A stretch of DNA of 64,000 bases from Candidatus Omnitrophota bacterium (lineage in GTDB: Bacteria; Omnitrophota; Gorgyraeia; Gygaellales; Profunditerraquicolaceae). The stretch spans positions 14,114 through 78,113 of the forward strand of contig JBAZJY010000004.1 of NCBI GenBank assembly GCA_041651115.1, given 5' to 3'. A model generated the notes under the pieces. It had not been told where the DNA came from. It saw only the letters and a list, made by a program, of their open reading frames with translations, and made no database searches. Positions 43,681 through 54,419 of the stretch are shown in pieces (the stretch's first letter is position 1; the number at the start of each line of letters is the position of its first letter). Position numbers and translations under genes: made by a program.

Positions 43681-45981
43681 ATGGCACTGAAGCTCTCCGA
43701 GAATGCTCTAAAAGTCCTGCAGCGCAGATATCTTAAAAAAGACGAAACAGGAAAAGTCGTTGAGACGCCGGAAGAAATGTTCCGCCGCGTAGCTAAGGCT
43801 ATCGCTGCCGCGGACAAACAATACGGCAGGCCGCTTAAGGACGTTGCGGAACTTGAAGAAAAATTTTATCGCGTAATGACCAACCTTGATTTCGTGCCGA
43901 ATTCGCCCTGCCTGATGAATGCCGGCAAGGAGCTCGGCCAGCTCTCCGCGTGTTTTACCCTGCCGATCAACGATTCAATGGAATCCATTTTTGAGACATT
44001 AAAGGCTACGGCGATCATCCATAAATCCGGCGGCGGCACGGGATTTTCTTTTTCCCGGCTGCGGGCAAAGAATTCGGTGGTTAAGACAACCGGCGGCGTT
44101 GCCTCCGGCCCGGTTTCGTTCATGAAAGTATATGATTCCGCGACGGAAGCGGTAAAACAGGGCGGCACGCGCCGCGGCGCGAATATGGGAATACTGCGCA
44201 CCGACCATCCCGACATCATGGAATTTATCGCCTGCAAAGAAAACAATAAAGAGATAAATAATTTCAATATTTCCGTCGCTATTACCGACGATTTTATGCA
44301 GAAGCTGGAAAGCGGTGAGCCATACGATTTAATCGACCCGCATTCGCATAAAGTAGTGGAACGGCTTAATACTAAAGACGTTTTTGAGCTGATCGTTAAA
44401 CAGGCGCATAAGAACGGCGAGCCGGGAGTGATTTTCATTGACCGGATCAACCAGCATAATCCTACGCCTAAATTAGGAAATATTGAAAGCACTAATCCTT
44501 GCGGCGAACAGCCGCTCTTGCCTTATGAAAGCTGCGACTTGGGGTCAATAAACTTGGCCCAGATGTGCAAACCGTCGGTCAGGGGCGGCTTTGAGGTTGA
44601 CTGGCAAAAATTAAAAGAGACCACCCGCCTGGCAGTGCATTTCCTTGATAATCTTATTGACGTAAATAAATTCCCGCTTCCTGAAATAGAGAAATCAACA
44701 AAGGCAACGCGCAAGGTCGGCTTAGGCGTGATGGGCTGGGCAAGCCTTTTGATACGCCTGGGCATTCCTTATAATTCGGAAGACGCGGTCAGCCTGGCTG
44801 AAAAAATGATGTCGTTTATTTTGACCGAAGCAACTGCCAGGTCGCAGGAATTGGCAAAAGAAAAAGGCGTATTCCCGGCATTCCCCGGATGCACCTATGA
44901 TAAGAAAGACGGCGGCATGCGGCTGCGCAACGCAACGCTGACGACGATCGCGCCGACAGGAACGATCAGTATTATTGCCGGGCCGTGCTCATCGGGGATA
45001 GAGCCGTTGTTTGCCATTTCTTATTACCGCAACGTAATGGATAACGATAAATTAGTCGAGGTAGAGCCCTTGTTTGAAGAAGTGGCGCGCGAGCGCGGGT
45101 TTTACAGCCGGAAATTAATGGAAAAGATCGCCGAATCCCCCTCTTTAAAAAACATTGAGGGCGTGCCTGAAGACGTAAAAAGGATTTTTGTCACTGCCCA
45201 CGATATTACTCCTGAATGGCACGTGCGCATGCAGGCAGCCTTCCAGCGTTATACCCATAATGCCGTCAGCAAAACGATAAATTTTCCGCACGAGGCTACG
45301 CTTGAGGACGTGCGCAAGGCATACCTGATGGCTTATCAGCTGGACTGCAAGGGGATCACGATCTACCGCGACCGCAGCCGCGAAGAACAGGTTTTGAATG
45401 TGGCGCATAAAGAAGCTCCGGCGCAGCAGCAGCCGCTTGAGCCGGGAAAGATCGCCCCCCGTCCGCGGCCGGAAGTGGTTACCGGCACGACCACAAAAGT
45501 CGCTACCGGATGCGGCAACCTTTATGTTACCATTAACGGCGATGAGGAAGGCAGGCCGTTTGAGCTTTTTACGCAGATGGGCAAAGCCGGTGGATGCGCC
45601 GGTTCGCAGCTTGAGGCAGTGGGCCGCCTCGCTTCCCTTGCCTTTCGTTCAGGTATTGAAGTAAAAGCGATCATTGAGCAGCTGCGCAATATCCGCTGCC
45701 CCAGCCCTTCATGGGAAAAAGGCCAAAGGATATTTTCCTGCGCCGACGCGATCGCGCGCGTGATTGAAAAACGGCTGATGAGCGAGGCTAGCGCGTCCGT
45801 GCCTGCGGCGGAAGCGGCAGTTGAATTGGCAATGAAACATTCGCATAACGATCATATGGCGGCAGTCCCTGAAATAGACGCCCACGGAAATATTATCGGA
45901 GTTTGCCCGGATTGCGGCGGAGCCCTGCGCCACGAGGAAGGCTGCGTCAAATGCCAGGCCTGCGGTTATTCCAAGTGTTAG
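43681..45981 (+). CDS. nrdJ: Adenosylcobalamin-dependent (class II) ribonucleotide reductase
   Basis: It shows NrdJ N-terminal homology (LSENALKVLQRRYL...), the active-site motif TNPCGEQPL, and a C-terminal Cys-rich zinc ribbon CPDCGG...CVKCQACG. Confidence 0.85.
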   Translation: MALKLSENALKVLQRRYLKKDETGKVVETPEEMFRRVAKAIAAADKQYGRPLKDVAELEEKFYRVMTNLDFVPNSPCLMNAGKELGQLSACFTLPINDSMESIFETLKATAIIHKSGGGTGFSFSRLRAKNSVVKTTGGVASGPVSFMKVYDSATEAVKQGGTRRGANMGILRTDHPDIMEFIACKENNKEINNFNISVAITDDFMQKLESGEPYDLIDPHSHKVVERLNTKDVFELIVKQAHKNGEPGVIFIDRINQHNPTPKLGNIESTNPCGEQPLLPYESCDLGSINLAQMCKPSVRGGFEVDWQKLKETTRLAVHFLDNLIDVNKFPLPEIEKSTKATRKVGLGVMGWASLLIRLGIPYNSEDAVSLAEKMMSFILTEATARSQELAKEKGVFPAFPGCTYDKKDGGMRLRNATLTTIAPTGTISIIAGPCSSGIEPLFAISYYRNVMDNDKLVEVEPLFEEVARERGFYSRKLMEKIAESPSLKNIEGVPEDVKRIFVTAHDITPEWHVRMQAAFQRYTHNAVSKTINFPHEATLEDVRKAYLMAYQLDCKGITIYRDRSREEQVLNVAHKEAPAQQQPLEPGKIAPRPRPEVVTGTTTKVATGCGNLYVTINGDEEGRPFELFTQMGKAGGCAGSQLEAVGRLASLAFRSGIEVKAIIEQLRNIRCPSPSWEKGQRIFSCADAIARVIEKRLMSEASASVPAAEAAVELAMKHSHNDHMAAVPEIDAHGNIIGVCPDCGGALRHEEGCVKCQACGYSKC

Positions 45982-46612
45982 TTTAGGGACGGTTCTCAAC
46001 TCAAAGCTAAAGTGTCCCCTAAAAAGAGAACAAATTGTCTAAAAGTTTATTGTTCTCAGCTCTAAATTTGTAACTGCTCCAAGGGTATTGGCTCACATAA
46101 GATACTAATGAAGCTCTTACCGGGTTGCCCTCTATATAGTCGATACATTCCAAGAGATAGCTGTCTTTTTCAATAACCTTACTCTTAAATCTATCCTGCC
46201 AAAGGTGTCCAATCTTTTTGTTCTTATTATTAAAATAGAGAGTGTAACTTAAGTTTATTCCTCTCATAATTTTATTTAGTTTAATGGGGTTGCTTACTTC
46301 TATAATAAGATGGATGTGGTTAGGCATCAGGCAGAAAGCAAAGAGCCGAAATTTATGTTTATCTTTGTATTTTTTTAATATAGATAAATATACTTCGTAA
46401 TCCGTCGAATTGATAAAAACCAATTGTTTCTGGTTTCCCCTTGTGATAATATGGTAACAAGCATTTTCTATCGTAACTCTTGCCGTTCTAGGCATATCAA
46501 TCACCTCCTAACTAATAGACGAATAAAGAGTAATTTTCTAACAATAAATATACACATTTTTTTGAAGCGGAGGGGACACTTTAGCTTCAGCTTAAGAACC
46601 GTCCCTAAACTA
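45982..46612 (-). mobile_element. IS200/IS605-family (RAYT-like) insertion sequence. Its HUH Y1 transposase is flanked by inverted about-45-bp hairpin-forming ends.
   Basis: The left end is tttagggacggttctcaactcaaagctaaagtgtcccctaaaaag. The right end is ggggacactttagcttcagcttaagaaccgtccctaaa and is the reverse complement of the left end. The element lies exactly between the nrdJ stop and the mnmG start. Confidence 0.65.
46019..46504 (-). CDS. tnpA: IS200-like HUH tyrosine (Y1) transposase TnpA, REP-associated transposase-like
   Basis: YHIITRGN...CLMPNHIHLIIE (HuH)...GHLWQDRF...YIEGNPVRASLV...YPWSSY. A GGAGGTGA ribosome-binding site precedes the ATG on the minus strand. Confidence 0.8.
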   Translation of the reverse strand: MIDMPRTARVTIENACYHIITRGNQKQLVFINSTDYEVYLSILKKYKDKHKFRLFAFCLMPNHIHLIIEVSNPIKLNKIMRGINLSYTLYFNNKNKKIGHLWQDRFKSKVIEKDSYLLECIDYIEGNPVRASLVSYVSQYPWSSYKFRAENNKLLDNLFSF

Positions 46613-46614
46613 AA

Positions 46615-48531
46615 ATGTATGATGTTATAGTTATCGGAGCAGGGCATGCCGGAATCGAAGCGGCGCTGGCAGCAAGCCGTATAGGTTGTAAAACCCTGAT
46701 TGTGACTTTGCGGCTGGATAGTATCGGCGCCTTAAGCTGTAATCCGGCTATTGGCGGCGTGGGTAAGGGCCAGCTGGTAAAAGAGATTGATGCCTTAGGC
46801 GGTGAAATGGCAAAGGCAGCAGACAGCTGCGGCATACAATTCAGGGTGCTTAATGCTTCTAAGGGCGCTGCCGTGCAATCATCCCGGGCGCAGATTGATA
46901 TGGAACTGTATAAGAAATATATGCAATCGCTTTTAGCTGCCGCGCCAAACCTCTCCATAAAAGAAGCGGAAATAAAAAGCATGGCCGTGCGGGATGGACG
47001 CGTATGCGGCGTAATCACCGATAAAAAAGAAGAGATCATCTGCGGCTGCGTTGTGATCGCCCCGGGCACGTTCCTTGACGGCTTGATCCACGTCGGCCTG
47101 GATCATTTTTCCGGAGGCAGGATCAATGAGCCGGCAGCTTCCGGCCTTGCGCAAGATCTACGGCAGCTTGGATTTAACCTCCTGCGTTTTAAAACCGGCA
47201 CTTGTCCGCGGCTTGACGCTAAAACCATTGATTTCATTCGGCTAAAAATCCAGCAAGGCGATGATCCCGCAGCGCCGTTTTCTTTTTCCACGGAAAAGAT
47301 CAAACAAAAACAAGTCCCCTGTTACATTACCTATACGAACAATAAAACGCATAAGATCATCCTTAATAACCTGAATCGTTCTCCGCTTTATGCCGGGTTG
47401 ATAAAAGCAACCGGAGTAAGGTACTGCCCATCAATTGAAGATAAGGTAGTGAAATTCTCTGAACGGCCAAGGCATCAGGTATTCTTAGAGCCTCAAGGGT
47501 ATGACACGGATGAGATCTACCCCAACGGCCTCTCAACCAGCCTGCCTGAAGATGTGCAACTGGAAATGCTGCATTCTATTGAAGGGCTGGAACAGGCGCG
47601 GGTGATCCGTTTTGGCTATGGCATAGAGCATACGGTGGTTGAGCCTACCCAGCTTTATCCAAGCCTTGAAACGAAGCGCATAAAAAATCTTTTTCTTGCC
47701 GGCCAGATCAACGGCACAACCGGTTATGAGGAAGCAGCTGCGCAGGGATTGATCGCAGGCATAAATGCGGGGCTGGCCGTAAAAAATAAAGAGCCGCTGA
47801 TCTTAGATCGCTCATCCAGCTACATCGGCGTATTGCTGGATGACCTTACTACTAAGGGCACGCTTGAGCCTTACCGTATGTTCACTTCGCGCGTGGAATA
47901 CCGTTTACTTTTAAGAGAAGACAACGCCGACACTCGTCTCAGGCAGATCGGCAGCCGGTTGGGGCTGGTTTCAGACGAGGATTTACGTAAGACGAAAGAT
48001 AAGATCAAGGCAATTGATGCCGGGATAAATTATTTAAGGAAAACACGGGTAAGGCCCGGGCCGGAAGTGAATAAATTTTTACAAAACCTGGGGACTGCCG
48101 GCTTAAAAAAATCCGTTACCTTAGAGGAGATCTTAAAAAGGCCGCAGATAAATTTAAAGAACTTAATCGACCCCTGCCTGGGCGCAGGCTTGGAGATTGA
48201 AGAATGCGCTTTTCGACAGGTAGAAATCGAGGTAAAATATTCAGGGTTTATCCAAAGGCAGCTTAAGGAAATAGAAAGATTCACGCATCTTGAAAAGATA
48301 AAACTACCTGCGGTTATTGATTTCGCGGCGATTCCCGGGATTTCACGGGAGATCAAGGAAAAGCTTAAAGCTTTCCGGCCGCTTAACCTTGGCCAGGCAT
48401 CGCGCATCTCCGGAGTAACCCCGGCAGCGATATCGATTCTGATGGTATATTTGAAGAAATTCACGGTTAGGGACGGTTCTCAGCCAAGGAGAAAAATGTC
48501 CCCGAATGGGGACACTTTTCCCTTGGGCTGA
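46615..48531 (+). CDS. mnmG: tRNA uridine-5-carboxymethylaminomethyl modification enzyme MnmG (GidA). Its last about 20 codons are encoded by a palindromic repeat element.
   Basis: The FAD motif is MYDVIVIGAGHAGIEAALAASRIG, with GidA-family homology throughout. The C-terminal tail ...TVRDGSQPRRKMSPNGDTFPLG is read from the repeat at 48465-48546. Confidence 0.85.
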   Translation: MYDVIVIGAGHAGIEAALAASRIGCKTLIVTLRLDSIGALSCNPAIGGVGKGQLVKEIDALGGEMAKAADSCGIQFRVLNASKGAAVQSSRAQIDMELYKKYMQSLLAAAPNLSIKEAEIKSMAVRDGRVCGVITDKKEEIICGCVVIAPGTFLDGLIHVGLDHFSGGRINEPAASGLAQDLRQLGFNLLRFKTGTCPRLDAKTIDFIRLKIQQGDDPAAPFSFSTEKIKQKQVPCYITYTNNKTHKIILNNLNRSPLYAGLIKATGVRYCPSIEDKVVKFSERPRHQVFLEPQGYDTDEIYPNGLSTSLPEDVQLEMLHSIEGLEQARVIRFGYGIEHTVVEPTQLYPSLETKRIKNLFLAGQINGTTGYEEAAAQGLIAGINAGLAVKNKEPLILDRSSSYIGVLLDDLTTKGTLEPYRMFTSRVEYRLLLREDNADTRLRQIGSRLGLVSDEDLRKTKDKIKAIDAGINYLRKTRVRPGPEVNKFLQNLGTAGLKKSVTLEEILKRPQINLKNLIDPCLGAGLEIEECAFRQVEIEVKYSGFIQRQLKEIERFTHLEKIKLPAVIDFAAIPGISREIKEKLKAFRPLNLGQASRISGVTPAAISILMVYLKKFTVRDGSQPRRKMSPNGDTFPLG

Positions 48532-48546
48532 GAACCGTCCCTAAGC
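48465..48546. repeat. Solo about-80-bp palindromic (MITE/REP-like) element made of the two IS ends head-to-head: ttagggacggttctcagcc...ggggaca...ggctgagaaccgtccctaa
   Basis: Its arms are the same as the IS200-like element ends at 45982-46612, and it forms an imperfect hairpin about 80 nt long. Confidence 0.65.
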
Positions 48547-48549
48547 AAT

Positions 48550-49215
48550 ATGACTGATAATTACCTTTCGTTAAAAAAGTTCTGCCTTGAGGCGGGCGCC
48601 GACCTATTCGGCGTTGCTGACATTAAAGCTGTGCGCGATGAATTTATGCTCTCAAAAGAGGGCAGGGAAAAGCTTAGCCGCGCAGTATGCATTGCCGCAA
48701 GGTTATCGCCGGCAGTTTTAGAAGAGATAAAAGACGCGCCCACGCGGTTATATTTTCACCACTATAAAACCGCGAATGCATTCCTGGACCAGCTGGCGTT
48801 TAAAACAGCAAGCTTTATCCAGAAAAAAGGGTTTCTGGCCATACCCATACCCGCATCGCAGATCGTTGATTGGCAAAAACAAACAGCGCACTTATCGCAT
48901 AAAAAGATCAGCCTGCTGGCAGGGCTTGGCTGGATCGGCAGGAATAATTTATTGGTGAATAAAAGATTAGGCAGCCGGATGCGCCTGGCAACCATCCTGA
49001 CGGATATGCCGCTTAAAACCGATAAGCCAACTAAAGATAATTGCGGTAACTGCCGATTGTGCCTCAAGCTTTGTCCTGCCGGAGCGATAAAAGATGACCC
49101 GGCTGATTTTGACCATATTAAATGTTTTGAAAAATTAAAAGAATTCCAGAAGCAGCGTTTAGTGGACCAGTATGTCTGCGGGGTCTGCGTTAATGCCTGC
49201 GGAGCGAAAAAATAA
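48550..49215 (+). CDS. 4Fe-4S ferredoxin-domain protein, possibly QueG-like (epoxyqueuosine reductase type)
   Basis: The Cys motif is CGNCRLCLKLCPAGAI and a second Cys cluster is CGVCVNACG. ...LLVNKRLGSRMRLATILTD resembles a QueG core segment. Confidence 0.35.
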   Translation: MTDNYLSLKKFCLEAGADLFGVADIKAVRDEFMLSKEGREKLSRAVCIAARLSPAVLEEIKDAPTRLYFHHYKTANAFLDQLAFKTASFIQKKGFLAIPIPASQIVDWQKQTAHLSHKKISLLAGLGWIGRNNLLVNKRLGSRMRLATILTDMPLKTDKPTKDNCGNCRLCLKLCPAGAIKDDPADFDHIKCFEKLKEFQKQRLVDQYVCGVCVNACGAKK

Positions 49216-49252
49216 GCCACAGGTTTCTTGACATAGCGGTATAATAGGATAT

Positions 49253-50239
49253 ATGTATATTTTTCTGGTTGGCGTTACTTTATTAATGGGTATTGCCGTT
49301 GGCTGGTCAATCGGCGCCAATGACGCCGCTAATTCATTAGGCACGGCAGTTGGTTCGCGCGTGCTTAACCTGAAACAGGCAATCGTCTTAATCTGTATTT
49401 TTGGCTTTCTGGGCGCGTATTTTCAGGGGTCGCATGTTGTCAATACCATTGGAAAAGGTATTGTGCCGATGGACCAACTGGATAAACCTCTGGCCATATA
49501 CCTTGCCTTGGTAGCTTCTTTTGCCGCCTGCGCATGGGTAGTCCTGGCTACCTATTGGAAAATGCCGATCTCTACCAGCCATTCCATTGTCGGTGCAGTT
49601 GCCGGAGCGGGCTTGGCAATAAGCGCGCCGGTTAGATGGAAGATCCTTTTGGATATATTTATCTGTTGGTTGTTCACGCCTATCGGCGCGGCTGTTCTAG
49701 GTTATATTTTTTACCGCGTCTTCAAGAACATTTTTTACCGTATTGTTCCCCGAAAATACTTAAGGCCCGTATTAGCGGGTTTGATTATTACCAGCGGATG
49801 TTATGTCGCTTATACCTGGGGCGCCAACGACGTTGCTAATGCCGTAGGCGTGATCTCCGGCTCGGGTATTATTTCCGTGAATATAAGCACGATTATCGGG
49901 GGCGCGGCAATACTTTTGGGCATTGTGACATGGGGCTATAAAGTTATTGAAACAGTCGGCTCGGAGATAGCCCATTTGCTGCCGATCATGGCGTTTTCCG
50001 TACAGCTGGCCAGCGCCATAAACGTCCATGTTTATACGGGGTTCGGTATCCCGGTTTCTACCAGCCATTCCATTGTCGGCGCGATCTTTGGGGTCGGCCT
50101 GGTAAGGGGCGTGCATGTTTTAAACTTGCGCATTATCAGGGAAATAGTTTTTTGTTGGTTGGCTACGCCGTTTATTTCCGGCGTGATCGGTTTTCTTATC
50201 CTTAAAGGGCTTATGGTTTTTCTAAAAATAGGAGGTTAA
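49253..50239 (+). CDS. Inorganic phosphate transporter of the PiT family
   Basis: The duplicated PiT signature GANDxAN is present as IGANDAANSLGTAVGS and WGANDVANAVGVISGS, and the whole protein is multi-TM. Confidence 0.8.
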   Translation: MYIFLVGVTLLMGIAVGWSIGANDAANSLGTAVGSRVLNLKQAIVLICIFGFLGAYFQGSHVVNTIGKGIVPMDQLDKPLAIYLALVASFAACAWVVLATYWKMPISTSHSIVGAVAGAGLAISAPVRWKILLDIFICWLFTPIGAAVLGYIFYRVFKNIFYRIVPRKYLRPVLAGLIITSGCYVAYTWGANDVANAVGVISGSGIISVNISTIIGGAAILLGIVTWGYKVIETVGSEIAHLLPIMAFSVQLASAINVHVYTGFGIPVSTSHSIVGAIFGVGLVRGVHVLNLRIIREIVFCWLATPFISGVIGFLILKGLMVFLKIGG

Positions 50240-50241
50240 CG

Positions 50242-50910
50242 ATGAAAGAGATGCGTAATATTTTAGGGTGGCTGGGCATGGCAGAAGAAGAATCAATCCT
50301 GCAGGACGCGCAAAAGCATGTTGAGGAAACTTATAAAACGGTTACTTATTTTGCCGAAGCGGTAAAGGCTTTTATCGGAGGAGATTTGGAGGCTAAGACC
50401 GTAGCGATTGAAAAAGTGAGGGAAAGCGAGCACCAGGCGGATATCTTAAGGTCAAAAATGGTCAATGAGCTATCGGAGAGCCTGTTGCTTCCTCCGGACA
50501 GGGAAGACCTTATGCATTTCGTGAAGACTTTGGATAAGATCGCGGACTGGACTAACGGCGCAGCGCGACTGCTGGGTTTTATTGAACAAAAACTTCCGGA
50601 GAATGTTTTGAAAAATATCTCGCTGGCTACCGAGCTGATCGTTTCTTCGGTTTCTAAATTGAAAGAAGGCATCCAGGCAGTGATCAAAAATGACCTTAAG
50701 AAGGCGCTTGCCGATTCCGAGGCTGTAGGCCGCTTGGAACATGACGCCGATGACCAGAAAAAAACGCTGATCGAGGCGATCATACATACCAAGCTTGAGC
50801 CGGCAACGCTCTTGTTATCTTATCAGTTGGCAGAATACCTTGAAGGCGTAACCGATAAAATAGAAGACGCCGCTGATTTTATCAAAGTAGTGGCGATCAA
50901 AGCCAGGTAA
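50242..50910 (+). CDS. DUF47 (PhoU-like, Pit accessory) protein
   Basis: It shows the DUF47/TIGR00153-type helical-bundle pattern, lies directly downstream of the PiT gene in the conserved pairing, and has an ATGA start-stop overlap with the next gene. Confidence 0.6.
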   Translation: MKEMRNILGWLGMAEEESILQDAQKHVEETYKTVTYFAEAVKAFIGGDLEAKTVAIEKVRESEHQADILRSKMVNELSESLLLPPDREDLMHFVKTLDKIADWTNGAARLLGFIEQKLPENVLKNISLATELIVSSVSKLKEGIQAVIKNDLKKALADSEAVGRLEHDADDQKKTLIEAIIHTKLEPATLLLSYQLAEYLEGVTDKIEDAADFIKVVAIKAR

Positions 50911-50911
50911 G

Positions 50912-51601
50912 ATGAAAGAAAAGATCCTGATCGTTGATGATGAAAAAGACATAGCCAGAATGATCGACTATAACCTTAAAAAAGAAGGTTTCCGGACCGC
51001 GCTTGCCTATGACGGCGAAGAAGCCTTAAGGTCGGCAAACAGGGGCGGCATAGATCTGATACTTTTAGATCTGATGCTTCCCGGCAAGGATGGCCTGGAA
51101 GTATGCAAAGCGCTTAAGAATGACGCTAAAACCGCTTCTGTCCCGGTAATCATGCTGACTGCCAAATCTCATGAAGCGGATAAGATTGTTGGTTTAGAGT
51201 TGGGCGCCGATGATTATATTACCAAGCCATTCAGCCCGAAAGAACTGATCGCACGCATCAAGGCGGTGTTGCGCCGCGTAAAAGGCAAGCAGGAATTGCC
51301 CGAAATATTAAAGATCGGCAGCCTAATGATAGATTTTTCCAAGATCGGCGTAAGCGTAGGTAACAAGCCGGTGGAATTAACGGCAAAAGAATTTGAGCTG
51401 CTTAAGGCGCTGGTTAAGTCAAGGGGTAGGGTAATGTCCCGCGACAGCCTTTTGGATGCAGTCTGGGGTTTTGAAAACGCGCTGGAAATCCAGACCCGTA
51501 CCGTAGACGTGCATATAAGGACTTTACGCAAAAAATTAAAAAAAGAATCAGGGCGGATAATCACCGTCAAGAATTACGGCTACCGGTTTGAGGCCGGGTA
51601 A
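50912..51601 (+). CDS. phoB: OmpR/PhoB-family response regulator
   Basis: REC domain (ILIVDDE...[14 protein letters not shown]...) plus a winged-helix trans-regulatory domain (...[14 protein letters not shown]...GYRF). Confidence 0.8.
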
Positions 51602-51620
51602 GTAACGCCGTTACTAACAT

Positions 51621-53396
51621 ATGTTTATCAAAAATAGCCTTAGATTAAGATTAACTCTTTCCTATGCTAGCGTCATAATCATTTCCTTCGGTCTGCTCGC
51701 TTTTTTCCTCTACAAAAATCTGGAAGAACGGTCTTTAAAAAATACAGCCTCTTTGCTTACGGCTCAAGGGCGGTTGATCGAATCTTATATTATTCCCGGT
51801 AATTTAAGCACTGAAGATAGCGCCTACCTGGATTCTTTTATCAGGAAATTAGGGCAGCAGATAAATTATCGGGTAACGATCATTGATGCAAACGGTAGAG
51901 TGTTAGCTGATTCTCAGGAGGCACGGGAAGCCGCATTAAATATGGAAAATCATGGCAACAGGCCGGAAGTAAAAAGCGCCATGTCAGGCTCAATTGGCCA
52001 AGCAATACGCTATTCTTCTACATTAAAAAGAGAAATGCTTTATATTGCCCTGCCTTTAAAGGCAGGGGATAAGATCTCGGGAGTTTTAAGGCTTTCACTG
52101 CCGCTGGAAGGCGCGAAACAGGAATGGTTCGCGGTCAGGAATTCGCTTATCCGCGGATTATTCTTTGCATTAGGATTCGCCTTTGTCCTAGGCTCGGCAT
52201 TAGCCGGAACGACGGTAAAGCCGATCAAAAAAATGGTTAAAATTTCCCGTCGGTTCTCGCAAGGGGATTTTAGCCAGAGGATGCCGTGGTATTCGCCGAA
52301 TGAGATCGGAGAACTGGCAGTTGCGTTGAATGCTATGGCGCAAGAAATAGAAGATAAAATGCGTAAAATACAGCTGCAGGGCCAGCAGCTGGAAGTTATA
52401 TTTAACAGCATGGTTGAGGGGGTGATCGCAACCGATAGATCCGGCCGCATAATTTCCCTGAATTCCGCCGTAAAAAAAATATTCGGGATTACCGGCGAAG
52501 AAGCCCAGGGAAAATTATTCCTTGAGGCGATACGCAATAATGATATCTCTGAAATAATAAACAGTGCGTTGAAGACGGGGGCTTTTGTATCCCGGGAGTT
52601 GAATCTCGCTTGGCCCGTAGAAGGCATATTTGAGGCCAGTGCCTCGCCGGTCTTTGATAAGGCGGGAGTGAACGGTTGCCTTCTGGTGTTGCATGATATA
52701 ACCAAGATGAGAAGACTTGAAACCATCCGCAGGGACTTTGTCGCCAATGTTTCCCACGAGTTAAAAACTCCGCTTACTTCGATCAAGGGCTTTGTGGAAA
52801 CGCTGCTTGAGGGCGCGATAGAAGATAAAAATAATGCCCGGCAGTTTTTAGAAATAATCCGCGAGCACGCTAACAGGCTCAATAACCTGATTAATGACCT
52901 GTTGGAATTGTCGCATATTGAATCCAGGGGGATCAAATTAGATATAACGCAGGTAAACTTGAAAAACCTTACGGATAAGGTAGTTTCCGGCTTTGCCACA
53001 CAATTGAAGAAAAAATCGCTTATCTTCTATAACGAATTACCCGTTGGGCTTACGGTTAAAGCCGATAACGAAAAAATAGAGCAGGTTTTTACCAACCTTA
53101 TCGATAACGCGATTAAATTCAATAAAGAAAACGGGTTCGTAAGTGTTTCTTCCGAAGTTCGGGATAATAAGATGAAAATCATGGTTGAGGATTCCGGCAC
53201 CGGGATTCCCGCTAAGGACCTCCCGCGTATTTTTGAGCGGTTTTACCGCGTAGATAAGGCGCGTTCGCGCGAATTAGGCGGTACAGGCCTCGGCCTTTCT
53301 ATAGTTAAGCATATCATTGAGCTGCATTCGGGAAAAGTAGGGGTAGAAAGCCTTGAAGGCGCCGGTTCAAAATTCTGGTTTATCCTGCCGCTCTGA
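51621..53396 (+). CDS. phoR: PhoR-like sensor histidine kinase
   Basis: Two TM segments, HAMP, PAS, a HisKA H-box (VANVSHELKTPLTSI), and HATPase_c N, G1 and G2 boxes (NLIDNAIKF, DSGTGIP, GGTGLGLSIVKHI). Confidence 0.8.
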   Translation: MFIKNSLRLRLTLSYASVIIISFGLLAFFLYKNLEERSLKNTASLLTAQGRLIESYIIPGNLSTEDSAYLDSFIRKLGQQINYRVTIIDANGRVLADSQEAREAALNMENHGNRPEVKSAMSGSIGQAIRYSSTLKREMLYIALPLKAGDKISGVLRLSLPLEGAKQEWFAVRNSLIRGLFFALGFAFVLGSALAGTTVKPIKKMVKISRRFSQGDFSQRMPWYSPNEIGELAVALNAMAQEIEDKMRKIQLQGQQLEVIFNSMVEGVIATDRSGRIISLNSAVKKIFGITGEEAQGKLFLEAIRNNDISEIINSALKTGAFVSRELNLAWPVEGIFEASASPVFDKAGVNGCLLVLHDITKMRRLETIRRDFVANVSHELKTPLTSIKGFVETLLEGAIEDKNNARQFLEIIREHANRLNNLINDLLELSHIESRGIKLDITQVNLKNLTDKVVSGFATQLKKKSLIFYNELPVGLTVKADNEKIEQVFTNLIDNAIKFNKENGFVSVSSEVRDNKMKIMVEDSGTGIPAKDLPRIFERFYRVDKARSRELGGTGLGLSIVKHIIELHSGKVGVESLEGAGSKFWFILPL

Positions 53397-53408
53397 TCAC
53401 CGTAGGCT

Positions 53409-53461
53409 TTACACAGATTTTACATTAACTTAATACAGCCATAACATAATACAGGTATAAT
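53409..53461 (+). promoter_or_regulatory. Candidate Pho-box promoter for pstS: TTACAC-N5-TTACAT at 53409-53425 and a -10 TATAAT at 53456-53461
   Basis: These are direct hexamer repeats with 11-bp periodicity in the style of the Bacillus PhoP TT(A/T/C)ACA boxes, plus TAATACAG...TAATACAG direct repeats at 53431-53454. Confidence 0.35.
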
Positions 53462-53470
53462 AATGGCTAG

Positions 53471-53550
53471 TTAGGGACGGTTCTCAAGCTAATCGTAAAG
53501 TGTCCCTAAAAAGGGGACACTTTAGCTTTAAGTTGAGAACCGTCCCTAAA
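53471..53550. repeat. Solo about-80-bp palindromic (MITE/REP-like) element in the pstS 5' leader: ttagggacggttctcaagctaatcgtaaagtgtcccctaaaaaggggacactttagctttaagttgagaaccgtccctaaa
   Basis: It is almost perfectly self-complementary, and its arms are the same as the IS ends at 45982-46612. Confidence 0.65.
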
Positions 53551-53567
53551 ATAAGAAAGGAGAAACT

Positions 53568-54419
53568 ATGCTTAAGCGGTTAATCGTATTATTCTTTGCA
53601 TTCTCATTTTCTGGAAGCGCTATGGCCGCGCCGTCTAAAAATATGGTTCAGATTAAGGGTTCGGATACGATGGTTAACCTTGCCCAGGCCTGGGCAGAAA
53701 AGCAAATGGAAGATAACCCCGGGGATTTTATTGCCGTTACCGGCGGAGGCTCGGGTACCGGGCTTTCCAGCCTGATCAGCGGGACTTGCGATATCGCAAT
53801 GAGTTCAAGGGATATCAAGGAAAAAGAAATTGCTTTGGCCCGGCAAAAGGGCATAGAGCCGTATGAGATCAAAGTCGCCCTGGACGGTTTGGCAGTAGTG
53901 GTTAATCCCAATAATCCAGTAACAAATTTAACCGTCAGCCAATTGGCAGATATTTTTACAGGAAAAGTTACTAATTGGAAAGAAGTCGGCGGCAGCGACT
54001 TAAGGATCGTGATATTATCGCGCGAAGTAAATTCCGGCACGCATGTTTATTTTAAAGAGCATGTTTTAAGGAACAATGACCCGGCTTCAAAAGAAGAATT
54101 CGCTCCCGGAGCGCTGTTGCTTTCTTCTTCGCAGGCAATTGCCGATGAAGTAGCGCAGAATTCTTCGGCAATCGGTTATTACGGTATGGGTTATGTTTCA
54201 GCAAAACAAAAAGCAGTGCATGTGGCCAAAGATGAAAAATCGGAGTTTGTTGCGCCGGTGATTGAGAACGTAATAAACGGCAAATATCCCATTTCCCGGC
54301 CGCTGTTTATTTATACTAACGGCCAGCCCCAGGGATTGGTGAAAAAGTTCGTGGATTTTATCCTTTCCAAAGAAGGCCAGGAAATCGTCCTGAAGACGGA
54401 TTTTGTCCCTATAAAATAA
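53568..54419 (+). CDS. pstS: Phosphate ABC transporter substrate-binding protein PstS
   Basis: A signal peptide plus the PstS-family motifs IKGSDTMVNLAQAWAE...GGGSGTG... Confidence 0.85.
   Translation: MLKRLIVLFFAFSFSGSAMAAPSKNMVQIKGSDTMVNLAQAWAEKQMEDNPGDFIAVTGGGSGTGLSSLISGTCDIAMSSRDIKEKEIALARQKGIEPYEIKVALDGLAVVVNPNNPVTNLTVSQLADIFTGKVTNWKEVGGSDLRIVILSREVNSGTHVYFKEHVLRNNDPASKEEFAPGALLLSSSQAIADEVAQNSSAIGYYGMGYVSAKQKAVHVAKDEKSEFVAPVIENVINGKYPISRPLFIYTNGQPQGLVKKFVDFILSKEGQEIVLKTDFVPIK

What the first reader, a model, noticed from the sequence alone, without database searches (positions are those of the whole stretch)
48465..48546. A palindromic transposon-end derivative supplies the C-terminus of MnmG
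The about-80-bp hairpin element starts inside mnmG. The last about 20 codons of the gene, ...TVRDGSQPRRKMSPNGDTFPLG*, are read from it. 'VRDGSQ' is the translation of gttagggacggttctcag, the conserved IS end. The insertion therefore replaced the native 3' end of an essential tRNA-modification gene. The hairpin probably also serves as its transcription terminator.
Basis: seen in the sequence. Interest (0 to 1): 0.6.

Follow-up and report, generated by a model that had tools for sequence, protein, structure and literature searches.

The report
REPIN hairpin extends the MnmG tail
A small mobile DNA hairpin, of the kind copied by the transposase-like gene next door, landed where mnmG overlaps the next gene in a Candidatus Omnitrophota genome, so MnmG now ends in 21 hairpin-encoded residues; this is real but ordinary for such repeats.

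Summary
Window 48467-48544 is a 78-nt near-perfect palindrome, and the last 21 codons and the stop of mnmG (46615-48531) are read from it.

The "IS end" is more precisely a REP/REPIN repeat. The same 37-nt arms flank a 161-aa gene just upstream of mnmG. That gene passes NCBI's model for REP-associated tyrosine transposases (RAYT) and fails the IS200 model.

Similar ~79-nt hairpins occur in many Omnitrophota genomes. The closest MnmG orthologues (80-81% identity) are 617-619 aa, end ...LKKYGQ*, and overlap the downstream QueG-like gene by 11 nt with no hairpin.

Nothing essential was lost:
- Pfam and PDB homology run to residues 610 and 616, just before the element.
- Only 2-4 native codons were displaced.
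- The presumed native TGA still lies 3' of the element.

The terminator idea is not supported. No U tract follows the hairpin, and the next gene starts 5 nt after it without a Shine-Dalgarno sequence.

REP-derived gene ends are already documented, and 8 of 43 family copies do the same. This is a new member of a known kind, of low to moderate interest. The most notable side result is a conserved RAYT-mnmG linkage in Omnitrophota.

The parts
48467..48544 (.). REPIN-type hairpin: two inverted 37-nt REP arms around a 4-nt loop. The conserved core AGGGAC...GTCCCT is 48469-48542.
   Evidence: Searches give the palindrome and fold (z = -10.8). Searches align it with 36 other 76-81-nt copies, among which it is the most stable (-61.5 against -39 to -55 kcal/mol). 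One search scores its arms at 42 and 29 bits against the family profile.
46615..48531 (+). mnmG ORF of 638 aa. It matches a Candidatus Omnitrophota MAG protein of the same length at 100% identity and 100% coverage.
   Evidence: ORF; GIDA, GIDA_C_1st, SAM_GIDA_C; P0001, 100% identity.
48466..48531 (+). Element-encoded tail VRDGSQPRRKMSPNGDTFPLG plus the stop TGA (48529-48531). The stop lies in the conserved TGAGAAC of the right arm.
   Evidence: Orthologues lack this tail. PDB homology stops at F616.
48543..48556 (+). Displaced native end of mnmG (AAG CAA TAT GAC TGA). It aligns without gaps to AAA AAA TAT GGC CAA of the relatives. The TGA at 48554-48556 overlaps the next gene's ATG by 8 nt. 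This is an inferred relic.
   Evidence: Searches show the empty site in L113 and L115. One search shows that removing the 74-nt core gives ...LKKFTVKQYD* and removing 89 nt gives ...LKKYD*. Both end at this TGA.
48550..49215 (+). Downstream gene for a QueG-like 4Fe-4S protein (221 aa). It starts 5 nt after the hairpin and has no Shine-Dalgarno sequence.
   Evidence: Fer4_16. (TIGR00276 at 79 bits, below the cutoff of 200). Searches show the same gene downstream of mnmG in relatives.
46019..46504 (-). RAYT gene (REP-associated tyrosine transposase, 161 aa), with the HUH motif at H63/H65 and Y123-x3-N127-P128.
   Evidence: Y1_Tnp, E = 2.7e-18. (NF047646 at 92 bits against cutoff 80). (72-73% identical orthologues at the same position in L116 and L118).
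45983..46019 (+). Left REP arm flanking the RAYT gene. It starts 1 nt after the TAG stop of the upstream ribonucleotide reductase gene.
   Evidence: (47.8 bits).
46572..46608 (-). Right REP arm flanking the RAYT gene. It ends 6 nt before the mnmG ATG.
   Evidence: (37.8 bits).
53471..53549 (.). Second REPIN hairpin (79 nt), intergenic, lying 10 nt upstream of an AAGGAG Shine-Dalgarno sequence and its ATG.
   Evidence: -50.9 kcal/mol.

Best explanation
The 78-nt palindrome is a non-autonomous REPIN-type element. It consists of two inverted copies of the 37-nt terminal repeat that flanks the RAYT gene lying 1.9 kb away, directly upstream of mnmG.

It inserted at the junction where mnmG originally overlapped the start of the downstream QueG-like gene by about 8 nt. 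The native end was probably ...LKK(FTVKQ)YD*, with its TGA inside ATGACTGA.

The core is 74 nt, so the mnmG frame shifts. Translation now runs through the left arm, the loop and most of the right arm, and stops at the TGA of the conserved TGAGAAC motif. This adds 21 element-encoded residues and displaces 2-4 native ones.

The catalytic and MnmE-binding parts of MnmG are untouched, and tail length in the phylum varies from 0 to 25 residues. The insertion is therefore most likely tolerated selfish or neutral DNA rather than an adaptation.

The new stop lies 18 nt before the next gene's ATG, so termination-reinitiation coupling could survive. A translating ribosome would also melt the hairpin that otherwise buries that ATG.

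Shown: the element's identity, its family, the empty site in relatives, and the intact domain. Inferred: mobilisation by the RAYT, the exact ancestral sequence, neutrality, and the preserved coupling.
For: Element identity:
- Same arms around the RAYT gene and in a third copy.
- RAYT model passed and IS200 model failed.
- 43 hairpins of 70-90 nt with the same ends in other, mostly Omnitrophota, genomes. They share a two-stem architecture, with G-C to C-G covariation in the inner stem (14 against 13 copies).

Empty site and intact protein:
- L113 and L115 carry the same flanking genes with an 11-nt overlap, ATGGCCAATAA.
- 17 of 24 RAYT-linked metagenome mnmG loci keep a native short tail overlapping the next start.
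- Removing the core restores a stop that overlaps the downstream ATG.
- Pfam and PDB homology end before the element.

Generality:
- 15 of 43 family copies have an upstream ORF of at least 100 aa ending in or running through the element.
- 8 of these read 9-25 codons into it. Two (L028 and L044) use the same RDGSQ frame.
Against: - No genome closer than 80% MnmG identity was available. The exact pre-insertion sequence is therefore ambiguous: 74 nt inserted into a longer native tail, or 89 nt including a possible AAGAAAT/AAGCAAT duplication.
- RAYT-mediated mobility of this family is untested anywhere.
- The arms are long terminal inverted repeats with only a 5-bp internal GGGAC/GTCCC stem, and the 5' tag is NYAG, not strictly GTAG. 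They differ from textbook REPs.
- This copy is unusually well paired. Its internal loop is closed by complementary changes on both arms, and every frame except the one with the TGA is free of stops. That could hint at selection rather than neutrality.
- L116-L118 and about 7 of the 24 metagenome loci also have hairpins or relics at this junction. Targeting or selection at this site is therefore not excluded.
Confidence: 0.85

Rival explanations
1. The hairpin has been co-opted as the transcription terminator of mnmG, or as a 3' mRNA stabiliser.
For: The hairpin is very stable (-64.8 kcal/mol). The inner stem TGTCCCC/GGGGACA is followed by CTTTTCCCTT and preceded by an A-rich stretch. The consensus scan reports it as terminator-like. 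From general knowledge, REPs in E. coli are known to stabilise upstream mRNA and to attenuate transcription within operons.
Against: - The full hairpin is followed by AAGCAATATG with no T run.
- The terminator-like inner site would end the transcript about 10 nt before the mnmG stop, giving non-stop mRNA.
- The count of terminator-like sites equals the shuffle expectation (5 against 4.8).
- The downstream gene starts 5 nt after the hairpin, with no predicted promoter or Shine-Dalgarno sequence. In relatives it overlaps mnmG, so read-through is needed.
Confidence: 0.12
2. The element is the end of an ordinary IS200/IS605-family insertion sequence or its MITE, rather than part of a REPIN-RAYT system.
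For: The protein has the Y1_Tnp domain. It is flanked by the repeat and forms a compact 626-bp unit.
Against: - The IS200 equivalog scores 26.5 bits against a cutoff of 55, while the RAYT equivalog scores 92 against 80.
- From general knowledge, IS200/IS605 elements have subterminal hairpins, not 37-nt terminal inverted repeats.
- The gene sits divergently next to mnmG in L116, L118 and 44 of about 45 informative metagenome loci. Its identity (72-73%) tracks that of MnmG, which indicates vertical inheritance at one locus.
Confidence: 0.08
3. The insertion is maintained by selection. Either the REPIN-encoded tail modifies MnmG, for example its interaction with MnmE, or the hairpin sets the expression ratio of mnmG to the QueG-like gene.
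For: This copy is the best-paired member of the family and has complementary changes on both arms. Its only stop in any of the six frames is the TGA that ends the tail. The same junction carries REP-like hairpins or relics in L116-L118 and about 7 of 24 RAYT-linked loci.
Against: Tails at this junction differ in sequence, length and position, and most relatives have none. An open run of 21 codons is expected by chance in roughly a third of cases (my estimate, (61/64)^21). Only one sequence carries this tail (P0001 has one member), so conservation cannot be tested.
Confidence: 0.08
4. The hairpin is an assembly artefact of a metagenome-assembled genome, such as a chimeric join at a repeat.
For: The source is a MAG, and palindromic repeats can confuse assemblers.
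Against: Both flanks are collinear with relatives (ribonucleotide reductase, mnmG, QueG-like gene) up to the bases adjoining the element. The element is complete, like 43 others in independent assemblies.
Confidence: 0.02

Closest known systems
REPIN-RAYT systems and REPtrons (Nunvar 2010; Bertels and Rainey 2011, PMC3116915; PMC5581495; Di Nocera 2013, PMC3733652)
   Same: - A single Y1 HUH transposase-like gene is flanked by inverted repeat units.
- The same units are dispersed as inverted doublets that form long hairpins.
- The gene keeps a fixed chromosomal position across diverged genomes.
- Repeats lie in short intergenic spaces, often touching gene ends.
[quoted passage not shown]
   Different: The host phylum is Omnitrophota; no paper in the searched library links it with tyrosine transposases. 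The units are 37-nt arms with only a weak internal palindrome. The 5' tag is NYAG (TTAG here) rather than GTAG. The doublet is compact at 74-79 nt, with a conserved outer 15-bp stem and an inner 10-bp stem.
Rickettsia palindromic elements and other intragenic MITEs (reviewed in PMC10969869)
   Same: Small palindromic mobile elements that are translated as part of host proteins without destroying them.
   Different: Rickettsia palindromic elements are about 150 bp, insert in frame inside genes and add internal peptide segments. Here the element sits at the extreme 3' end, shifts the frame and supplies the stop codon. No dedicated transposase is reported for the CGTC-tagged repeats, the class to which the Rickettsia elements belong, whereas a RAYT is adjacent here.
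E. coli REP/BIME elements close to stop codons (Liang, Rudd and Deutscher, Mol Cell 2015; cited from memory, not read here)
   Same: A stable REP hairpin at or within a few nucleotides of a stop codon inside an operon. It could stall terminating ribosomes and lower the output of the upstream gene.
   Different: In E. coli the REP lies downstream of the stop. Here the stop codon is inside the 3' arm. There are no expression data for this organism.
IS200/IS605 insertion sequences
   Same: They have a Y1 HUH transposase fold, and mobility depends on DNA hairpins in single-stranded DNA.
   Different: The protein fails the IS200 equivalog model. The element has long terminal inverted repeats. The gene is syntenically fixed rather than scattered.

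Membership tests
REPIN-RAYT system | Y1 HUH protein of the RAYT clade, as opposed to IS200/IS605 TnpA | tested here: met
   NF047646 (REP-associated tyrosine transposase) scores 92 bits against a cutoff of 80. NF033573 (IS200) scores 26.5 against 55. H63-x-H65 and Y123...N127-P128 are invariant in three orthologues.
REPIN-RAYT system | RAYT gene flanked by the repeat units in inverted orientation | tested here: met
   Arms at 45983-46019 (+) and 46572-46608 (-). The same arrangement is seen in L116 and L118.
REPIN-RAYT system | Dispersed non-autonomous doublets of the same unit that form hairpins | tested here: met
   Two doublets in the window (48467-48544 and 53471-53549). A further 41 copies of 70-90 nt are present in other genomes, several per MAG, for example five loci of JAQUAP01.
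REPIN-RAYT system | Each unit is itself a short imperfect palindrome with a GTAG-type 5' tag | tested here: inconclusive
   Only a 5-bp GGGAC/GTCCC stem, separated by about 22 nt, lies within an arm. The tag varies (TTAG, ATAG, GTAG, CTAG, CCAG, TCAG). The arms resemble the long terminal inverted repeats around some RAYTs described in PMC3733652.
REPIN-RAYT system | RAYT is single-copy and vertically inherited at a fixed locus | tested here: met
   For locus fixity: mnmG lies divergently adjacent in 44 of about 45 informative RAYT loci of at least 58% identity. RAYT identity of 72-73% equals MnmG identity. Copy number in this genome could not be tested, because only 64 kb is available.
REPIN-RAYT system | Tens to hundreds of copies in the host genome | not testable with these tools
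   Only the 64-kb window of the source genome is held. It contains three elements, which is six arms.
REPIN-RAYT system | RAYT binds and cleaves its REP as single-stranded DNA | not testable with these tools
   This needs biochemistry.
IS200/IS605 insertion sequence | TnpA matches the IS200 equivalog; the ends are subterminal hairpins without terminal inverted repeats; multiple full copies are present | tested here: not met
   The IS200 model is below its cutoff. The element has 37-nt terminal inverted repeats. There is one full unit in the window, and its position is syntenic across genomes.
Intrinsic (Rho-independent) terminator | G+C-rich hairpin immediately followed by a U tract, downstream of the stop codon at the end of a transcription unit | tested here: not met
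   The full hairpin is followed by AAGCAAUAUG. The stop codon is inside the 3' arm. The next gene starts 5 nt later and overlaps mnmG in relatives. Only the inner 7-bp stem has a T-rich tail, and that site lies upstream of the stop.
MnmG/GidA | Complete GIDA FAD domain plus both C-terminal helical domains | tested here: met
   PF01134 matches 1-391 of 391, PF21680 matches 1-95 of 96, and PF13932 matches 1-57 of 57, ending at residue 610. Alignment to E. coli MnmG structures runs to residue 616.

The most novel reading that the evidence does not exclude
The mnmG/QueG-like junction may be a preferred or selected landing site in RAYT-bearing Omnitrophota. Under this reading the intact REPIN has been exapted as an intercistronic control element. 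Its in-element stop codon, and melting of the hairpin by the terminating ribosome, would gate translation of the Shine-Dalgarno-less downstream tRNA-modification gene. The RAYT locked beside mnmG would maintain such hairpins.
Probability: 0.08. Interest if true: 0.55.

Novelty: new member of a known kind. Interest (0 to 1): 0.25.

Why it matters
- **Annotation.** The deposited 638-aa MnmG carries 21 residues that are repeat DNA read by accident. About a fifth of this repeat family's copies do the same to other genes. This inflates and diversifies protein C-termini in Omnitrophota databases.
- **Biology.** The finding adds an uncultivated phylum to the hosts of REPIN-RAYT systems. It also shows a RAYT fixed beside mnmG across substantial divergence, which fits the view of RAYTs as vertically inherited, domesticated genes.
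- **Limit.** It does not reveal a new mechanism.

Tried and rejected
- **Rfam.** A scan of 45800-54000 at E <= 1 gave only sub-threshold chance hits: a plant miRNA model on the hairpin at 25.5 bits against a gathering score of 70, and a group II intron fragment at 24.5 against 40. No known RNA family is present.
- **Simple excision.** Removing the 78-nt palindrome fuses mnmG to the next gene (...LKKFTGNMTDNY...) with no stop. I rejected this as the ancestral state.
- **TA target-site duplication.** I considered a Tc1/IS630-type MITE. The outermost dinucleotides vary as an extension of the inverted repeat (YA...TR), not as a duplication.
- **One ancient orthologous insertion shared with L116-L118.** This is unlikely. 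Most RAYT-linked relatives keep the native overlap, and the inserted sequences differ in sequence and position. It is not formally excluded.
- **The 16-mer genome scan.** By my estimate about 277 chance hits are expected in 596 Gb. Single hits in unrelated phyla (Streptococcus and others) were therefore ignored, and only inverted pairs were used.
- **Literature on REPs near stop codons and tmRNA.** The search found only a reference-list mention, so that point rests on memory.

Full report
**Observation**

Window 48467-48544 is a 78-nt palindrome. Its 37-nt arms are 89% complementary and are separated by 4 nt. As RNA it folds at -64.8 kcal/mol, against -26.2 +/- 3.6 for dinucleotide shuffles (z = -10.8).

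The mnmG ORF (46615-48531, 638 aa) ends ...ISILMVYLKKFTVRDGSQPRRKMSPNGDTFPLG*. From V618 to the TGA at 48529-48531 it is read from the palindrome.

The terminal 17-mer occurs six times in the window at up to 3 mismatches, against 0.14 expected. These sites form three inverted pairs.

**What the repeat is**

The pair 45983-46019 / 46572-46608 encloses a 161-aa gene on the minus strand (46019-46504).
- It has the Y1_Tnp domain (E = 2.7e-18).
- It passes NCBI's equivalog for REP-associated tyrosine transposases (NF047646, 92 bits against a cutoff of 80).
- It fails the IS200 model (26.5 against 55).

The other two pairs (48467-48544 and 53471-53549) are 78- and 79-nt doublets of the same 37-nt arm with nothing between them. 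This is the REPIN architecture. A profile of family arms finds exactly these six arms in the 64 kb.

A capped genome-collection scan with the 16-mer returned many loci. Single hits are expected by chance (my estimate is about 277 in 596 Gb). However, 43 loci carry inverted pairs 70-90 nt apart, mostly in Candidatus Omnitrophota MAGs and often several per MAG.

Aligned, 37 of them share the following features:
- an outer 15-bp stem, AGGGACGGTTCTCAA/TTGAGAACCGTCCCT; its invariance is partly due to how the copies were found;
- a variable internal loop of about 9 nt;
- an inner stem of about 10 bp, with G-C to C-G covariation (14 against 13 copies);
- a loop of 4-8 nt.

The two outermost bases vary, so the core is AGGGAC...GTCCCT. 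In the window this is 48469-48542 (74 nt).

The mnmG copy is the most stable of the set (-61.5 against -39 to -55 kcal/mol), because its internal loop is closed by complementary changes on both arms. Its left arm is the most divergent from the family profile (29 bits against 38-48).

The window protein matches a Candidatus Omnitrophota MAG protein at 100% identity and coverage (P0001).
- The next four orthologues (80-81% identity) are 617-619 aa and end ...LKKYGQ*.
- Among the 120 best hits, 53 have a 3-residue tail after L[KR][KR]. The range is 0-25 residues.
- No orthologue shares the RDGSQ...FPLG tail.

In the closest relatives the gene order is the same: ribonucleotide reductase, mnmG, then a Fer4_16/QueG-like gene. 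There mnmG overlaps the downstream gene by 11 nt (AAA TAT GGC CAA TAA, with the ATG inside) and there is no hairpin. This is an empty site.

In the window, the sequence 3' of the core (AAG CAA TAT GAC TGA TAA TTACC) aligns without gaps to the relatives' AAA AAA TAT GGC CAA TAA TTACC.
- Deleting the 74-nt core gives ...LKKFTVKQYD*.
- Deleting 89 nt gives ...LKKYD*.
- Both end at the TGA at 48554-48556, which overlaps the downstream ATG by 8 nt, the usual arrangement in this clade.
- Deleting only the 78-nt palindrome gives a stop-less fusion, so that is not the ancestral state.

The element displaced 2-4 native codons and the native stop, and the mnmG frame now ends at the TGA inside the conserved TGAGAAC of the right arm.

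A typical 75-nt core placed at the same spot would stay in frame and keep the native stop. The present arrangement could therefore reflect a 1-nt loss in the loop after an in-frame insertion. This is inference only.

**Effect on the protein**

Pfam SAM_GIDA_C matches over its full length (1-57 of 57) up to residue 610. Alignment to solved E. coli, Aquifex and Chlorobium MnmG structures stops between residues 613 and 616 (E. coli at F616), 1-5 residues before the element-encoded part. The tail is an appendage beyond the conserved fold, in a position whose length varies naturally.

**Terminator claim**

- The full hairpin is followed by AAGCAATATG, with no T run.
- The stop codon lies within the 3' arm.
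- The next gene starts 5 nt after the hairpin, without a Shine-Dalgarno sequence or a predicted promoter. In relatives it overlaps mnmG.
- Only the inner 7-bp stem plus CTTTTCCCTT scores as terminator-like. Termination there would precede the mnmG stop.
- The number of such sites equals the shuffle expectation.

The hairpin is therefore more likely an intercistronic structure within an operon. The new stop lies 18 nt upstream of the next ATG, so termination-reinitiation coupling remains possible (inference).

**How general this is**

Of 43 family copies, 15 have an upstream ORF of at least 100 aa that ends in or runs through the element.
- Six take their stop from the terminal TAG.
- Eight (including this one) read 9-25 codons into the element. 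L028 and L044 use the same RDGSQ frame.

Di Nocera et al. [quoted passage not shown] In-frame palindromic elements are classical in Rickettsia. The phenomenon is thus known. The host phylum appears to be new for it, since no paper in the searched library combines Omnitroph* with tyrosine transposase.

**RAYT-mnmG linkage**

L116 and L118 (MnmG 72-73% identical) carry an orthologous RAYT (72-73% identical) in the same divergent position upstream of mnmG, flanked by nearly identical arms.

A metagenome scan with the RAYT alignment returned 80 loci. Among those of at least 58% identity with enough upstream sequence, 44 of about 45 have mnmG adjacent. None of the more distant RAYTs does. This is the fixed-locus, vertically inherited behaviour described for RAYTs (PMC5581495 and related papers).

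Most of these linked mnmG genes keep the native overlapping end (17 of 24). About seven, plus L116-L118, carry hairpins or REP relics at the junction, with different sequences and positions. The junction has therefore probably been hit more than once. Proximity to the RAYT or tolerance of the site could explain this; targeting is not shown.

**Verdict**

It is imprecise about the element type (a REPIN of a RAYT, not an IS end). It overstates the loss of native sequence. Its terminator claim is unsupported. This is a new member of a known kind, of low to moderate interest.

Noticed in passing
window 46019-46504 (-) next to 46615-48531 (+); L116, L118, L120-L170, L199: The RAYT gene sits divergently beside mnmG in 44 of about 45 informative metagenome loci of at least 58% RAYT identity. 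RAYT divergence matches MnmG divergence (72-73%). This points to a long-lived, vertically inherited RAYT locus in Omnitrophota.
   Followed up: partly
window 48486-48531: The left arm of the mnmG hairpin contains AAGGAG (48486-48491) followed 4 nt later by ATG (48496-48498), in frame with mnmG. This could encode an 11-aa peptide, MSPNGDTFPLG. Other family copies lack it, so it is probably chance.
   Followed up: no
L117:1325-1495 and L119:3345-3390: L117 has no RAYT but holds a degenerate REP-like palindrome of about 170 nt where the RAYT would be. In L119 the long MnmG tail comes from a tandem duplication of about 21 nt (AAAAAGCGCCTGGCCCCTTTT twice) rather than from a hairpin.
   Followed up: no
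L009:6269-6356, L043:7382-7469 (Butyrivibrio); L053:6953-7021 (Clostridia MAG); L018 (Ca. Taenariivivens): Hairpin-like elements of 69-102 nt in other phyla have the same TTAGGGACGGTTCTCA termini but unrelated interiors. The terminal motif may be recognised by a RAYT clade that spans several phyla.
   Followed up: no
window 45979-45983 and 46019-46021: The ribonucleotide reductase gene's TAG stop lies 1 nt before the left REP arm. The RAYT's own stop overlaps the inner end of that arm by 1 nt. In relatives without the RAYT, a 33-nt spacer occupies this position (L113:2049-2082).
   Followed up: partly
window 53854-53932 (+): A sub-threshold Rfam match to the group II intron model (24.5 bits against a gathering score of 40; E = 0.18). 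It is probably chance.
   Followed up: no
loci L006, L013, L016, L021, L051, L063, L077, L079, L088; window 53550-53571: Many family copies lie 5-20 nt upstream of a Shine-Dalgarno sequence and start codon of the neighbouring gene. They therefore fill the very short intergenic spacers of these compact genomes.
   Followed up: no
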